64,000 nt of DNA, taken from IMG/VR virus record IMGVR_UViG_3300037455_000402, positions 74,951-138,950 of that record; one strand, written 5' to 3'. Below are positions 1-64,000 of the stretch, piece by piece (positions within the stretch are counted from its first letter, which is position 1; every line of letters starts with the position of its first letter). The notes beneath the pieces are model-generated. The model searched no databases, was not told where the DNA came from, and saw only the letters and a program-made list of their open reading frames with translations. The stretch comes from a virus. Taxonomy: Duplodnaviria > Heunggongvirae > Uroviricota > Caudoviricetes. A program made the position numbers and the translations under genes.

Positions 1-1432
1 ATTCATAATAATTTCTCTAATAATTATTAAGACGAACATAGGGAACAATAGCTAAATTATGATTTGAATACTTATCAATTAAATATTCTAATTTAGAACT
101 AATTTCTTCCTCAGTGAATGAATCTTCAAAATGGTCAAAATCAATTCTTTTACTGAAATGTTCCATGTTTATTACAACGACTTCCTTATGAGTTTTATCA
201 TAAGCCTTGTGCTATCCTAATAAAGCAAGTGCCGCCCAAAGAAAAGCAACGTTTTCCCAAAGCTCACCAATTTCTTTTAATAAGCCTTTTATCATTTTAT
301 TTAAAGGACTATCTTCATCAAAAAGATAAATACTTATTCCTGCAAGAACCTAACCGATAACCCAAAAGTCTCGGTTTAAATCTTCAATTTCAACCTTGCG
401 TTGATACTGCGGCATAATAAGACGAATCCACTTGTTTTGTCCCTGAGTTCTTGTAAAGCCAAGTTTCTTTTCATCACAAAGTACGCTTAACTTTTTATCA
501 CTACCACGAACTCTACTATAAGTTTCTCCATCAACATTATACCAAGGAACTACCCAAGGATTTTTTACAACCTTGAAAATCTTATAGGTTCCTGTGATGC
601 TATAAGTGCCAGCCTGAGCAGGAATCACATATTCTTCGTTTTCATCATCAAATTCCACACCGCTTCTTACTGAGTTACTAAATTCCTAAGCCTAAGAACT
701 ATTTAACTAAGTTGGATTTGCTTCCAAAGGTCCGAAATATTTATTTGCTTCTTCGCCAAATAAAACATTTTTTCCTTCATAAGAATGATTACCTTTTGTA
801 ACTTTTACATAAGAATAAAATCTTAAATATTCATATACATCATTCGCATCGGCAAAGCTATAGCCAGCATCAGCATCCATAATATCAATCATACGAAGTT
901 CTGCTACTGCTCCATGTGCCGCAATACTTGCACGTAAATGTTCAGTATCAATCATTCCTTCGTCTTCTGGCGGCTCAGTAATTTCAATAAGAAGACCAGA
1001 CCTCTCATAATCTCTAACAGATTCGGGGTCAATTTTCTCTGCAAGAAGCTTCATTAAATTCGCTACTGAATCATTCCAAAAGTCTTGCCATATATCTGTA
1101 TCGTCGGTTATTTTTGTATAATCATTTTTAAAACCATTAAGGTCGACGAGTGCATTTTTAAGAGAGGTATAAAGACCATTCTCCCCATTAAAAAATTCAT
1201 CTTCACCAAATTCTGTATCTTCAAGCATAGACCAGTCAATACGATTTGCTACCTATTGAATTAATGTAGTAGAATTATCTATTTCGTCCTGGGTAATAGG
1301 AGTAATCTAAGGAACTTCTGAACTGTAATTAATTTGAGTTAAAGCCATAAGCTCCTTATATAAATCCTTTCTCTTATCGGGATTAATAGATAAATAATCT
1401 ATCATCAACTGTAAGAAATCACTTTTATTCAT
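1..1432 (-). CDS. Hypothetical (probably virion) protein, paralog A; runs off the left edge; TAG read as Gln
   Basis: ATG at 1432 after a GGGGTG RBS. Track ORFs 707..1228 and 350..658 share one frame and are joined only by TAGs. Shares the core IRLxMPxYxRxVExEDLNRxFWVIGQV...LWEN with 1440..3104. Confidence 0.8.
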
Positions 1433-1439
1433 CTATTAT

Positions 1440-3104
1440 TCACCCCTTTATATTTTGCCATGTCGCTACTTCGCCACCATACCAACCTTGTACAATTTCT
1501 ATCGGAGAAGTTGGGACATTAACTGATGTATCATTAAAGTCACTCTCATTATGAGTATAGATTAAAGACTTAATAGTTGAACGAGTAAGACTTCCAATTG
1601 AAAAAGTTCCTTCGAATACCTTACTTGTTACACCGCCAAGCTATTTACTAACGTCATAGACTTCAGCAGTTATATCTAAAGTCTTAATTTCGCCATTTTC
1701 AAAAGTTAAATTACTCCAAGAAGTAAAGACAGTTCTTAATGCCGCACTATATGGAACATTAATTTCTCCATTTTTATAATCCTTAACAAAATAATATTTA
1801 GTAGAATTTTCTCTCATTCCCCAAGGATTATTAGCAAAAACTCTTGTACCAATTCTCATAGAACCATTATCATTCGGAGTAACTATAAAACGTACAAAAT
1901 GAGTATTATTAAGGAAATAGAATGGAATATAACTTATATAAAAAGTTTCATCAAAAGTATTATCTGATGCCGCACTAAAGTTATGACTCCATCTGTCATA
2001 AAAAATAATGCCCGGATATATTTCACCAGCATATCTATTCTCTTTATAATTACTATATTTAACTTTAGGAATAATAATCAAAGAAGAGTCTCTATATAAG
2101 TCTTTAAGATATTGTAATGAGTTCCAACACTCTGCTAACATAGTGTCTGGTAATTTATCAGAAACGGCTTCTCTCATAGTATAAGGAGTAAAGTCATCAA
2201 ATTTAGTCTGACCAAAATCAAAACTATATCTGTCTGTTCTCAATTCACGAGAAGAAATTGGCACAACTAAAACAATAGGATTTTCTCTTATTTCTTTCTA
2301 TGAGATTAAAACAAATCCAACCCAAAGATATAAAAGATTTTCCCAAAGCTGAGCAATTTCATCTGCCATTCCCTAAAACAAATCTTTAAAAGGATTCTTT
2401 TCCCCAAATAAGAAACCGCAAATACCACTGATAACCTAACCGATAACCCAGAAGTTACGATTTAAGTCTTCAACCTCTACGGTTCTTTCATATTCAGGCA
2501 TGAGAAGGCGGATATATTTTTCTAAGAGTTTATGAGTAAATTGCATCTTAGTTTTATTAGATAAAATTCTTACAATCTTATCATTTCCTCTTACTTCATC
2601 ATAGAGATAGCCGTCTACATTTGCATGAGGTTTAACCCAAGGTCCCGTAGAATTAAATTTGAATCCTGCATCAGCGCCAAGAATATCGCCTATTTTTATA
2701 TTATTGGCAACTTCTTTATTAGCATCATACATATCCTAAAAATACTAAATAAGTTTCTAATAGCTCTCATTCCAATGTGGTTGAGTTCCATCGAAACATT
2801 TATCTAAAAAGCTATCAATTAAATCAGCATTATTGTTTATATATTCAACAACGCTCTATTCATTAATTTCTGCTTCTTTATCGCCACCAGAGGTAAACAT
2901 ATAATCTCTTATACCATATTCTCCATTTGGTAACTTATCTTTTTCATTTTGAAGATAATTGAGAAGACCATCCCAAAAATCGTCCTGTCTATCAGCAAAG
3001 GCTTTTAATGCTTCACCATCAAAATTCTCTGCATTAATTAACCCGCTATTAATAAGCGAATCCATTATCTAATCGAAGGTTGAATAATTATTTATCTCCG
3101 CCAT
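1440..3104 (-). CDS. Hypothetical (probably virion) protein, paralog B, 554 aa; about 9 TAG=Gln
   Basis: ATG at 3104 after GGAG. ORFs 2856..3065, 2436..2732 and 1641..2264 are in one frame separated only by TAG. Ends at TGA 1440-1442. Confidence 0.82.
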
Positions 3105-3414
3105 TCTCTCCACCACCGAAGCGTCCCATAATATCCTTGAATGAATCAAATCCAAACATTGCAATGAAAGCAACAATGAATCCGCCAAAGATACCAAGGA
3201 TAATTGTTGAAGCAATAGCTCCAGATACGAAAGCTCCAGTCATAAATAAGTAAGCAAACATTACGAAGAAAGCAGTAATGATTGTTACAAGTTTAGTAGG
3301 AACGTTCTTAGGAAGCAAATTCTTTGCAACCTGAACAATTACAGAAGTTATAGATGCAAGTATACCTGCTATACCTAAGGCAGAACCACCGACTAAAGTT
3401 GTTAAAAACTCCAT
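3088..3414 (-). CDS. Holin-like membrane protein, 108 aa
   Basis: Two to three hydrophobic segments and a charged C-terminus; directly downstream of the endolysin; no TAG. Confidence 0.75.
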   Translation of the reverse strand: MEFLTTLVGGSALGIAGILASITSVIVQVAKNLLPKNVPTKLVTIITAFFVMFAYLFMTGAFVSGAIASTIILGIFGGFIVAFIAMFGFDSFKDIMGRFGGGENGGDK

Positions 3415-3437
3415 AATCTCACCTCACTTAATAAAAT

Positions 3438-61679: not shown

Positions 61680-61685
61680 AAAGAA

Positions 61686-61708
61686 GAGGCTTAGTAAAAC
61701 TAAGCCTC
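61686..61708 (-). terminator. Stem-loop after the tape measure gene
   Basis: GAGGCTTAG-TAAAA-CTAAGCCTC. Confidence 0.7.
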
Positions 61709-61714
61709 ATAAGA

Positions 61715-64000
61715 TTAAAGTTCTTGTTGAAGAATTGTATTTGTACCTGCAGGGCGGGCAACTTCTACAATTTCTTCTTTAACTCTTTCGAGCATTTCAT
61801 CAATATCTGTTTCAGATGAAATATGGTCGATATTAAGATTAATTTCAACATTAACATCGCCACCGTTATTTGTAACAACTGTTGAAGAATCTGTTGTTCT
61901 ATCAATCCAAGGAATGTTAGAAAGTATTCTTGCCGCATTACCAATATTCTCAGTATCCTCTGCAGATAAGAAAGCTTCAGGTCTTTCAGGAGAACCATCG
62001 ACCCAAGCTGGACCAGTATAATTTACAAGTCCGCCTTCAGCAAATTTCTTATTCGCGAGTTGAGTTGCAACCCAATGAATAAAGTCTGTCTCAGATAGCT
62101 TCTTACCAGCATCAGAAATTGCATAACCATTAATTCCAGCCTTACTTGCATAAGCAGCGGCTTGATTTTTATGATAAGTAAGCCAATTCTCAATAATTTC
62201 TTCTTTGCTGAATTCGCTTTGGTCTGCAAGTTCTTCAACTCTATCAGAAGATAAGGTAGAAATTTGACCAATCATTGCCTTATCAGCTTCAGCACCTTCC
62301 ATCTTCTTAGAAATATCATCTAATGCCTCGTGTCTTACGCCATAGCTATTAATTAATCCATAAAGAGATGACGGTTCTGGTTCTGGCTCATAATCATTTT
62401 CCCATTCCTCATAGGTATTTGGAATATTTACTGCATTTTGGTAAGCATCTGCGGCGGCATTAGCTGCGGCAGCACACTCATTATATTTCTGAATAGCTTC
62501 TTGTAATGCCTTATTGGCATCATCAATTGCTTTTTCAGCTTTTTCCATATCCTCAGTAAATGCCTAAGTAGTTTCATTATAAGAACGGATTACTTCATCA
62601 GAGAAAACTTCTGCAGTTGAAGTAATTATCTAATCAACCTCTTCACCAGTTACTGTCATTGTTTCAACAATGAAATCTCCAGTTTCAGAAGATTTATCCA
62701 TTGCAATAATTGACATATATTCTGTTGCGGCTTCATAGGTTTCACCATATTCTCTTAATTTATCCTACTACATAGCTAATGTCATATCAGCATATTCTTT
62801 AGAGATACTTGAAAGATAAGTTGCATATTCATCGGCAGATTCAAATGAACCCGCAAGGCTTTCAGCCTATGTATTCCAATAAAGAGTATTATCAAGCAAT
62901 GCTTCTTTAAGCTCCATCTCTTCATCACGAAGTTCTTGCTATGATTCGTAAAGTTTTGAAAGTCCATCAATAACATTATCAATAGCATCATCAAGCATCT
63001 ATTCTCTTGTTTTTTCAACGTCCTATTCAAGATTTTGAACTTCAAGAGCATTAGCACCTGATGTATCACGCTACATAAGAGATAACTTCTTTTCTTTCTA
63101 AGCAAGGTCTTCCCAAGCCTAATCTTGTTCACGAAGTTGTCTCTATTTATCAATAGCTTCCTAAAGAGCGTCAAGGTAATCGTCATCAGCATCTTTCATT
63201 GAATCATATTTATTCTTTAATTCATCAACTTCATCCTAATATTGCTATTTAAGTGCATCAGCAATTTCTTGCTCCATTTTAACATATTTTTGTCTTGCCG
63301 CATCGCGTTCATCTTGTAATTCTTTTTCAGCTTTACGAACATTATCTTCTGACTTAAGTAAATCTTCTGAATATTTATTGTAATTAGAAACCTATTCTTC
63401 AAGATAATCTTTCCATTTATCAGCAAATTGAGCTTCATTAATTAATCTCTGGTCAATCATGTATTTTCCAGTACGAGCATCCTTCTTTACATAATCACCA
63501 AATTTAACATCAATGTTATTACCAGTTTCTCTATCAGTGTAGCTAACGCCACCATTTTCAATAGTGTCTGCATAATTAGCAAGACCCTTTTGATAGATTT
63601 GCTGTTTAGCTTTTTCTTCTGCAAGAAGATTGTGAGTAGCCTAAGTATAACGAAGAAGTGCATTGGTTGATTCTTCGACAGATTTACTATCAGATAATAA
63701 ATCTTTTGAACGAGTAATTTCATCGTTAAAGGAGTTAATAGCTTCCTCATAGTTATAAAGTAAATCAAGAGTAGTTTTACGATTTGGAGAACCATAAAGA
63801 AGTTCATTATATTCTTTAAGTTTTTCATTTAAGTCTTCTTGCTTTTCAATTAAATCTTCTTCTGCTTTTGCTAAGTCTTCTTGTGCTTTTGTTAAATCTT
63901 CTAATGCTTTTTTACTATCAGTTGCTGCGCCTTTTATTCCATTGAAGCTTCTCTATACTTCTCTGTAACCGGCATGAATTTTATCAGATCCAATGTATTC
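61715..64000 (-). CDS. Tape measure protein, C-terminal part (starts beyond the right edge)
   Basis: Long coiled-coil frame with many TAG; RDTSGANALE and FAEGGLVNYTGPAWVDGS..RPEAFL motifs; TAA at 61715. Confidence 0.88.

What the first reader, a model, noticed from the sequence alone, without database searches (positions are those of the whole stretch)
1..64000. Window-wide TAG-to-Gln stop-codon reassignment (code 15)
Seen: dozens of track ORFs end in TAG and resume in the same frame, and every reconstructed gene terminates in TAA or TGA. TAGs fall on Gln positions of recognisable motifs: GH25 W-Q-Y-S (4053), NrdD Q-SAFTN (24703), RuvC EDI-Q (51142). Established: TAG=Gln recoding is known in Lak, some crAss-like and other gut phages. 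Inference: this is a recoded SPbeta-like phage of a standard-code Clostridia host. The decoding machinery is not in this window.
Basis: partly seen in the sequence, partly recalled or inferred. Interest (0 to 1): 0.82.

Follow-up and report, generated by a model that had tools for sequence, protein, structure and literature searches.

The report
Phage that reads TAG as glutamine
This stretch belongs to a complete 186-kb gut-type phage that uses the stop codon TAG as a glutamine codon in its tail, lysis and some DNA-metabolism genes, read by two suppressor tRNAs it carries elsewhere in its genome. It is a clear case of a code change already known in gut phages.

Summary

- **Coding density:** it rises from 0.71 under code 11 to 0.94 with TAG as sense.
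- **Frame integrity:** 12,702 codons of TAG-bearing window genes hold 211 in-frame TAG and no TAA or TGA.
- **Relatives:** with TAG masked, TAG columns behave like CAA/CAG columns in eight related phage loci. Gln is the plurality residue in 39.5% of TAG columns, 41.3% of true Gln columns and at most 4.6% of columns of the 11 other residues tabulated.
all hold. GH25 has Q in 4/4 solved structures, NrdD in 114/114 homologs, and the RuvC-like resolvase in 56/73.
- **Decoding machinery:** Two tRNA-CUA with the glutamine-type U1-A72/A73 acceptor end lie about 50 kb upstream. The genome encodes no release factor and no Glu/Gln-tRNA synthetase.
- **Uneven use:** early genes, the core replisome and three probable abundant virion proteins are TAG-free, and a relative shows the same pattern.
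- **"SPbeta-like":** only partly true. The replication module is collinear, but there is no integrase and the tail genes are unrelated.
- **Clostridia host:** this rests on MAG binning only.

The phenomenon is published. This scan has also noted it before, on this genome and in at least 308 others.

The parts
1..1432 (-). N-terminal 477 aa of a 976-aa tail-fibre-like ORF that runs off the window start; 8 in-frame TAG in the window part, 21 in the whole gene
   Evidence: no Pfam or PHROG hit
1440..3215 (-). 591-aa ORF of unknown function, in the tail/lysis module by position; 9 in-frame TAG
3474..4610 (-). GH25 muramidase (endolysin) with a C-terminal extension; 1 TAG at 4053-4055, on the conserved Q of the W-Q-Y-S/T motif
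   Evidence: Pfam PF01183, E 6.6e-20; Q in 4/4 PDB homologs; CAG/CAG/CAA in relatives L014-L016
4816..5922 (-). GH113-family glycoside hydrolase; 3 TAG. Residue 306 is Q in 120/120 homologs, residue 226 has a Q plurality, residue 151 is variable
   Evidence: Pfam PF22612, E 9e-98
5947..16985 (-). Run of tail/baseplate-type ORFs: 126, 308, 737, 1168, 90 and 220 aa, then a 990-aa collagen-repeat protein. They carry 4, 4, 10, 18, 0, 4 and 9 in-frame TAG
   Evidence: collagen repeats PF01391; homologs in L001-L008/G002 align across the TAGs
17683..51441 (+). Replication and nucleotide-metabolism module of 39 ORFs, with 42 TAG in 19 of them. TAG-free: ligase, RNase H, NrdG-like, GyrB, GyrA, AAA_24, DnaB, PolIII alpha. 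With TAG: NrdD 2, PhoH 1, primase 1, RecJ 3, ClpP 1, dUTPase 2, RuvC-like 7
   Evidence: Pfam; TAG counts; collinear with SPbeta yorF-yorL
24004..25965 (+). Anaerobic ribonucleotide reductase NrdD; TAG at 24058 (Q in 85/88 homologs) and 24703 (Q in 114/114)
   Evidence: PF13597, E 1.4e-91
44060..48001 (+). DNA polymerase III alpha-type replicase, 1313 aa, 38 CAA/CAG and 0 TAG: an example of a gene kept in the standard code
   Evidence: best cultured relatives are Enterococcus VRE9-type and SPbeta YorL at 37-39%
50728..51441 (+). RuvC-like Holliday junction resolvase with an N-terminal zinc-ribbon-like repeat domain; 7 TAG. Residues 139, 141 and 200 are Q in 56, 50 and 43 of 73 homologs
   Evidence: PHROG 827/159
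51478..61634 (-). Tail module: a 125-aa ORF (4 TAG), a 2165-aa ORF (45 TAG) and a 1083-aa distal-tail (Dit/Sipho_tail) protein (14 TAG)
   Evidence: PF05709; relatives 60-65% identical over residues 20-1083, across all TAGs
61715..64000 (-). C-terminal 761 aa of a 2608-aa tape-measure-like protein (SPbeta YomI-like, 24%); 18 TAG in the window part, 57 in the whole gene

Best explanation
The window is the middle third of a complete, apparently virulent, roughly 186-kb siphovirus-type phage genome. In this genome TAG is a glutamine codon (NCBI table 15).

TAG is read by two phage-encoded tRNAs with anticodon CUA. They sit in a 48-tRNA array about 50 kb upstream of the window. They carry the same U1-A72 pair and A73 discriminator as the phage's three ordinary tRNA-Gln, so the host's glutamine-charging route most likely loads them with Gln (inferred).

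TAG and CAA/CAG interchange freely between relatives, as synonymous codons do. TAG has been dropped as a terminator throughout the genome.

Use of TAG is compartmentalised. The tail, lysis, packaging and some late DNA-processing genes carry about 40% of their Gln codons as TAG. Early genes, the core replisome and three probable high-copy virion proteins carry none.

The most likely consequence is inferred from the published model for recoded phages. Host RF1 truncates TAG-bearing products until the suppressor tRNAs accumulate, so the code switch delays virion and lysis proteins.
For: Shown:
- Coding density 0.71 to 0.94 in the window and 0.69 to 0.89 in the genome.
- 211 in-frame TAG against 0 TAA/TGA in 12,702 codons.
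- TAG masked as X and aligned to eight related IMG/VR loci: Gln at 32.5% of TAG column-by-relative pairs, 38.7% at true Gln columns, 3.1% background. Gln beats Glu, the next candidate, by 479 nats.
- Per column, Gln is the plurality at 39.5% of 129 TAG columns, 41.3% of CAA/CAG columns and at most 4.6% of columns of the other residues tabulated.
- The commonest codons opposite TAG are CAA (147), CAG (122) and TAG (87).
- A nearly TAG-free relative, L007 (3 TAG in 6,173 codons), still gives Gln as best on its own.
- Homologs with a sense codon at the site: GH25 4/4 Q; NrdD 114/114 and 85/88; GH113 120/120 at one site; resolvase 56, 50 and 43 of 73 at three sites.
- Two tRNA-CUA at genome c[24699-24775] and c[25220-25294], scoring 54.3 and 52.2 bits on the Rfam tRNA model.
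- U1-A72 plus A73 occurs in only 6 of 48 tRNAs: all three tRNA-Gln, both tRNA-CUA and one tRNA-Met(CAU).
- The complete relative G002 (180.6 kb, terminal repeats) is also recoded (0.807 to 0.907) and has a tRNA-CUA.
- TAG is almost never a terminator in early genes: 1 of 100 ORFs, and that one is probably spurious.
- Gene-by-gene TAG loads agree between G000 and G002 at about 50% amino-acid identity. The replisome core and the 1121-, 402- and 262-aa head-module ORFs are 0/0, while tail genes are high in both.

Published precedent for the mechanism and the timing model: Borges et al., bioRxiv 10.1101/2021.08.26.457843. Proteomic proof of TAG=Gln in crAss-like phages: PMC9523058.
Against: - There is no peptide, RNA or tRNA-charging evidence for this phage.
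- Several TAG columns are not Gln in distant homologs: four of seven in the resolvase, with G or E/D pluralities, and one of three in GH113. This is expected at variable sites, but it shows the inference is statistical.
- The genome has no RF2, RF1 or Glu/Gln-tRNA synthetase. How host RF1 is outcompeted at up to 57 TAGs in one gene is therefore unexplained.
- The temporal classes (early, late) are assigned from gene content and position, not from expression data.
- The host, and hence its code, is not identified directly.
Confidence: 0.93

Rival explanations
1. The TAGs are nonsense mutations in a decaying, non-functional element (pseudogenes).
For: Under code 11 the late genes are fragmented: 45 of 88 window ORFs end in TAG.
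Against: There are 211 in-frame TAG but no TAA or TGA in 12,702 codons, although both are abundant out of frame. No frameshifts are needed. Relatives at 50-65% identity align across the TAGs and carry their own in-frame TAGs. The genome is complete and carries matching suppressor tRNAs.
Confidence: 0.01
2. TAG is a sense codon but specifies another residue, such as Glu, Lys, Leu, Ala or pyrrolysine. This scan has reported TAG-to-Leu and TAG-to-Ala readings in other phages.
For: ARAGORN labels the tRNAs 'Pyl' by default. Glu and Lys are the next most frequent residues at TAG columns. In the reciprocal direction, relatives' TAG columns face slightly more Glu (69) than Gln (60) in this phage.
Against: Once background frequencies are taken into account, Gln wins by 479 nats in the forward direction and 131 nats in the reciprocal direction. 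TAG columns have the same plurality profile as CAA/CAG columns. Invariant-Gln sites in NrdD, GH113 and GH25 carry TAG. The tRNA-CUA share acceptor-end features with tRNA-Gln, not with tRNA-Glu, Lys, Leu or Ala.
Confidence: 0.03
3. The host itself reads TAG as a sense codon and the phage simply matches its host, so there is no code conflict and no timing function.
For: The host is not identified directly. No phage release factor is present.
Against: The phage carries its own two tRNA-CUA. About 100 early ORFs and the replisome avoid TAG altogether, which has no obvious reason in a TAG-sense host. A distant relative is essentially standard-code. Relatives are binned with Oscillospirales, which by established knowledge use table 11. 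The published surveys predict that all TAG-recoded phage clades infect standard-code hosts.
Confidence: 0.03
4. Suppression is weak. TAG acts mainly as a leaky stop that sets low protein doses, not as a fully reassigned codon.
For: Probable high-copy virion proteins and the replisome avoid TAG in two diverged genomes. No RF1-neutralising gene was recognised.
Against: Genes with 45-57 TAGs would give almost no full-length product unless read-through per codon is near complete. By my arithmetic, 95% per codon gives about 5-10% full-length product. Essential proteins such as the portal (5 TAG), the terminase (7) and the tape measure (57) carry TAG. TAG is absent as a terminator.
Confidence: 0.05

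Closest known systems
Stop-codon-recoded (code 15, TAG to Gln) gut phages: Lak, crAss-like and the Garnet/Amethyst/Agate/Topaz clades (Borges et al., bioRxiv 10.1101/2021.08.26.457843; proteomic validation in PMC9523058)
   Same: In-frame TAG is concentrated in structural and lysis genes. Recoding of replication genes is variable. The phage encodes tRNA-CUA. The predicted host is a standard-code Firmicute. The clade mixes recoded and nearly standard-code members.
   Different: Membership of any named clade could not be tested, because their sequences are not held. There is no RF2, which is reported in some Lak and Agate genomes. There are two suppressor tRNAs inside a 48-tRNA array next to a tmRNA. 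Probable high-copy virion proteins are TAG-free.
Phage phAss-1 / proposed Phassvirus group (PMC10607447; OQ749652)
   Same: A large gut siphovirus-type genome with TAG in many ORFs and several suppressor tRNAs. Its terminase is recognisably related, at 32% identity.
   Different: Only distantly related, and its genome is 136 kb rather than 186 kb. The window's distal-tail protein found no match in it. It is not the same genus or family-level group.
Bacillus phage SPbeta (Spbetavirus, AF020713)
   Same: A collinear replication module, yorF-yorG-yorH-yorI-yorJ-yorK-yorL, at 27-37% identity. Ligase and dUTPase also match, and there are weak terminase (23%) and tape-measure (24%) matches.
   Different: Only 12 of 242 ORFs match. 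There is no serine or tyrosine recombinase and no YonO-type polymerase match. SPbeta uses the standard code, lacks the tRNA array and is temperate.
Large Firmicutes siphoviruses: Geobacillus virus E3, Enterococcus phages VRE9/H1
   Same: They are the best cultured matches for the terminase (40% and 34%) and PolIII alpha (38.8%).
   Different: They use the standard code, and their tail genes do not match.

Membership tests
Code-15 (TAG to Gln) recoded phage | Conserved genes interrupted only by in-frame TAG, never TAA or TGA | tested here: met
   211 TAG and 0 TAA/TGA in 12,702 codons
Code-15 (TAG to Gln) recoded phage | Clear gain in coding density and gene length under code 15 but not code 4 | tested here: met
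   0.71 to 0.94 with TAG as sense; TGA-as-sense gives 0.74
Code-15 (TAG to Gln) recoded phage | TAG columns align with glutamine in homologs | tested here: met
Code-15 (TAG to Gln) recoded phage | Cognate suppressor tRNA (anticodon CUA) | tested here: met
   Two in the genome, outside the window. None in the window.
Code-15 (TAG to Gln) recoded phage | Gln actually inserted at TAG (peptide evidence) | not testable with these tools
Code-15 (TAG to Gln) recoded phage | Host uses the standard code | not tested
   Inferred from TAG-free early genes and from binning of relatives with Oscillospirales MAGs
Spbetavirus / SPbeta-like phages | Shared gene content across the genome, including the virion module | tested here: not met
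   12 of 242 ORFs match. Apart from the terminase (23%) and tape measure (24%), structural genes do not match.
Spbetavirus / SPbeta-like phages | yorF-yorL type replication module | tested here: met
   Seven collinear matches at 27-37% identity
Spbetavirus / SPbeta-like phages | Temperate, with a large serine recombinase | tested here: not met
   No PF00239 or PF00589 match in the complete genome
Named recoded clades of Borges et al. (e.g. Agate) | Placement in the clade on a terminase tree | not testable with these tools
[quoted passage not shown]

The most novel reading that the evidence does not exclude
The TAG load per gene is a selected dosage and timing dial, and the phage has an unrecognised way of silencing host RF1. 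Two genomes that share only about 50% amino-acid identity keep the same genes TAG-free: the replisome and three probable high-copy head proteins. They keep the same genes TAG-rich: the tail, lysis and packaging genes, the resolvase and a PHROG 'sigma factor' with 13 TAG. Yet genes with 45-57 TAGs must be read almost completely, without any phage RF2, RF1 or synthetase. A further possibility is that such phages supply the suppressor for the small TAG-coded, suppressor-less mobile elements this scan has noted in gut Clostridia.
Probability: 0.25. Interest if true: 0.65.

Novelty: new member of a known kind. Interest (0 to 1): 0.3.

Why it matters
For annotation, this genome and its many metagenomic relatives must be translated with table 15. 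Under table 11 about a quarter of the coding sequence is lost, and the tail, lysis and packaging genes appear as fragments. NrdD homologs of 76-90% identity lie on contigs of up to about 184 kb.

Biologically, it adds a complete large Firmicutes-type phage lineage with graded use of the code. TAG makes up 1% to 44% of Gln codons among the relatives. That gradient could serve to study how a stop codon is captured.

It does not change what is known about phage recoding.

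Tried and rejected
- **PDB search with the resolvase:** a sequence search found nothing usable. PHROGs and a deep HMMER search were used instead.
- **tRNA identity by overall similarity:** this does not discriminate isotypes, since all tRNAs are 64-71% alike. I therefore used acceptor-end features.
- **Rfam gathering pass:** it listed only one of the two tRNA-CUA. A permissive pass on the short stretch scored the other at 54.3 bits, so both are ordinary tRNAs.
- **Base after TAG:** it differs only marginally from the base after CAA/CAG, with T depleted and G enriched (chi-square p = 0.024). 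That is too weak to claim selection on context.
- **Release factors and synthetase:** searches for PF03462 and PF00472 (release factors) and PF00749 (Glu/Gln-tRNA synthetase) in the genome were negative.
- **Structural proteins:** Pfam and PHROG searches of most window structural proteins gave nothing.
- **NrdD site against the Thermotoga structure:** the alignment alone was ambiguous, because a Gln also precedes the TAG. A set of 114 close homologs resolved it.
- **Rejected readings:** decay, another amino acid, and a recoded host (see rival explanations).

Full report
**What the window is.** The window is bases 74,951-138,950 of a single 186,457-bp IMG/VR virus record with 37.5% G+C. CheckV rates it 100% complete. 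Its first and last 200 bases are 199/200 identical, so the assembly closes on itself even though the record is classed as linear. The window contains no tRNA.

**The observation.**
- With a simple greedy set of non-overlapping ORFs, code 11 gives 88 ORFs in the window. Their mean length is 172 aa, coding density is 0.71, and 45 of them end in TAG.
- Reading TAG as sense gives 56 ORFs with a mean of 359 aa and a density of 0.94.
- Reading TGA as sense gives no such gain (0.74). Reading TAA as sense only inflates spurious ORFs in this AT-rich DNA.
- For the whole genome the figures are 0.69 and 0.89.
- 34 of the 56 window ORFs contain in-frame TAG, 246 in all.
- Window genes of at least 200 aa with at least three TAGs total 12,702 codons. 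They hold 211 in-frame TAG and no TAA or TGA. The two other frames of the same DNA hold 512 and 1,688 TAA+TGA.

This excludes decay, which would scatter all three stops and frameshifts.

**Which amino acid.** I masked TAG as X in both partners to avoid circularity. I then aligned the phage's ORFs to ORFs from eight related IMG/VR loci fetched with the distal-tail protein (L001-L008, about 34-53% mean identity).
- At this phage's TAG columns the relatives have Gln in 269 of 827 cases (32.5%). True CAA/CAG columns give 38.7%, and the background is 3.1%.
- The codons opposite TAG are led by CAA (147), CAG (122) and TAG itself (87).
- A likelihood comparison against the empirical substitution profile of each amino acid puts Gln 479 nats ahead of Glu. 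The reciprocal test, on relatives' TAG columns, gives 131 nats.
- Counting columns rather than pairs guards against relatedness among the loci. Gln is the plurality at 39.5% of 129 TAG columns, 41.3% of 179 Gln columns and 0-4.6% of columns of the 11 other residues tabulated.
- One relative, L007, is essentially standard-code (3 TAG in 6,173 codons). On its own it still ranks Gln first.

Homologs that carry a sense codon at the site agree.

| Gene | TAG site | Residue in homologs |
|---|---|---|
| GH25 | residue 186 (4053) | Q in 4/4 solved structures; CAG/CAG/CAA in three 75-76% identical relatives |
| NrdD | residue 234 (24703) | Q in 114/114 |
| NrdD | residue 19 (24058) | Q in 85/88 |
| GH113 | residue 306 | Q in 120/120 |
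| GH113 | residue 226 | Q plurality |
| GH113 | residue 151 | variable |
| RuvC-like resolvase | residues 139, 141, 200 | Q in 56, 50 and 43 of 73 |
| RuvC-like resolvase | four other sites | variable |

The protein it called RuvC is supported by PHROGs 827 and 159.

**The decoding machinery.** ARAGORN finds 48 tRNAs and a tmRNA in the genome, nearly all at 4.4-30.2 kb on the minus strand.
- Two tRNAs have anticodon CUA, at c[24699-24775] and c[25220-25294].
- Both are ordinary cloverleaf tRNAs on the Rfam model, at 54.3 and 52.2 bits.
- Both have U1-A72 and A73. Only six of the 48 tRNAs have this combination: the three tRNA-Gln, the two tRNA-CUA and one tRNA-Met(CAU).
- From established knowledge, U1-A72 marks bacterial tRNA-Gln and is used by the GatCAB amidotransferase route of Firmicutes. 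I therefore infer that the suppressors are charged as Gln by host enzymes. This step is not shown.
- The genome has no match to the release-factor families or to the Glu/Gln-tRNA synthetase family.
- The complete relative G002 (180.6 kb, terminal repeats) also gains density under code 15 (0.807 to 0.907) and carries one tRNA-CUA.

**Distribution of TAG.** The table gives TAG as a share of all Gln codons (TAG+CAA+CAG) by module.

| Module | TAG share |
|---|---|
| Minus-strand virion/lysis module, genome 64.2-92.5 kb | 0.41 |
| Minus-strand virion module, genome 126.4-170.5 kb | 0.375 |
| Plus-strand replication module | 0.14 |

- In the early and tRNA regions the apparent TAGs sit in spurious ORFs over RNA genes or upstream of likely true starts. 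ORFs of at least 100 aa there end in TAA (75), TGA (24) or TAG (1, overlapping tRNAs). TAG is thus neither a sense codon nor a terminator in early genes.
- Within the replication module the core replisome has no TAG: PolIII alpha, GyrA, GyrB, DnaB, AAA_24, ligase and RNase H.
- NrdD, RecJ, primase, PhoH, ClpP and dUTPase have some TAG, and the resolvase has the most (7).
- Outside the window, three consecutive-type head-module ORFs of 1121, 402 and 262 aa are also TAG-free. The portal has 5, the terminase 7 and a PHROG 'sigma factor' 13.
- This gene-by-gene pattern is reproduced in G002 at about 50% identity, which argues that it is selected.
- It fits the published model that recoding withholds late and lytic proteins until the code switch. 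It also suggests that TAG is avoided where very high output is needed. Both points are inferences, because no expression data could be obtained.

**What kind of phage.**
- The window encodes a GH25 endolysin, a GH113 hydrolase, collagen-like and Dit-type tail proteins, a tape-measure protein and a full replication set.
- Against SPbeta, 12 of 242 ORFs match. These include a collinear yorF-yorL replication module (27-37%), the terminase (23%) and the tape measure (24%).
- The terminase is nearer to Geobacillus virus E3 (40%) and Enterococcus VRE9/H1 (34%). The TAG-recoded gut phage Phass-1 matches at 32%.
- The Dit-like protein has no full-length relative among 50,697 GenBank phage records.
- No integrase of either class is present.
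- 'SPbeta-like' is thus right for the replication module only.
- Lysin relatives at 75-76% lie on contigs of 182-184 kb binned into Oscillospiraceae, Candidatus Fimenecus and Ruminococcus MAGs. These are probably whole phage genomes co-binned with their hosts. That supports a Clostridia (Oscillospirales) host only indirectly.

**Comparison with what is known, and verdict.** TAG-to-Gln recoding with phage suppressor tRNAs, late-gene bias and clades of mixed code is published (bioRxiv 10.1101/2021.08.26.457843; PMC9523058; PMC10607447). This scan has already noted it on this genome and in at least 308 other genomes. This is a clear, well-supported new member of a known kind. Three questions remain open:
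- how RF1 is overcome without a phage release factor;
- whether the TAG load per gene tunes dose and timing;
- who the host is.

Noticed in passing
whole genome; window 1-64000: CTAG is almost absent: 2 observed against about 301 expected in the genome, and 0 against 98 in the window. GATC is also strongly depleted (23 against 470). As a result none of 353 in-frame TAG codons examined is preceded by C. This looks like restriction-site avoidance acting on top of the recoding.
   Followed up: partly
genome 1-200 and 186258-186457 (outside the window): The first and last 200 bases are 199/200 identical, with the mismatch at position 128. The record is classed 'linear', but it closes on itself or has a short terminal repeat.
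   Followed up: partly
L032:18262-19479 (- strand; genome 169262-170479): A 405-aa ORF matches PHROG 5767 'sigma factor' (E 3e-23, no Pfam hit) and carries 13 in-frame TAG. Its G002 homolog has 2. If it is a late sigma factor, its synthesis would depend on amber suppression.
   Followed up: partly
L032:2689-6054, 9405-10613, 10637-11425 (- strand; genome 153689-157054, 160405-162425): Three head-module ORFs of 1121, 402 and 262 aa have no TAG in a module where their neighbours are TAG-rich. The same holds in relative G002. They are possibly the abundant capsid or scaffold-type proteins, but their identity was not verified.
   Followed up: partly
L007 (IMGVR_UViG_3300043104_000235) and L006 (IMGVR_UViG_3300028591_000106): Relatives span a wide range of TAG use in the same tail genes. 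TAG/(TAG+CAA+CAG) is 0.009 in L007, 0.14-0.23 in six loci (L001-L005 and L008) and 0.44 in L006.
   Followed up: partly
window 50728-50910 (+), N-terminal ~60 aa of the resolvase: The N-terminal domain of the RuvC-like protein recurs as 4-13 tandem copies in many unrelated-length metagenomic proteins of 350-1100 aa. This repeat domain was not identified further.
   Followed up: no
genome 24252-25294 (outside the window; L009): The phage tmRNA (tag ANDFAFAA, Rfam 107.8 bits) lies immediately beside the two tRNA-CUA genes.
   Followed up: no
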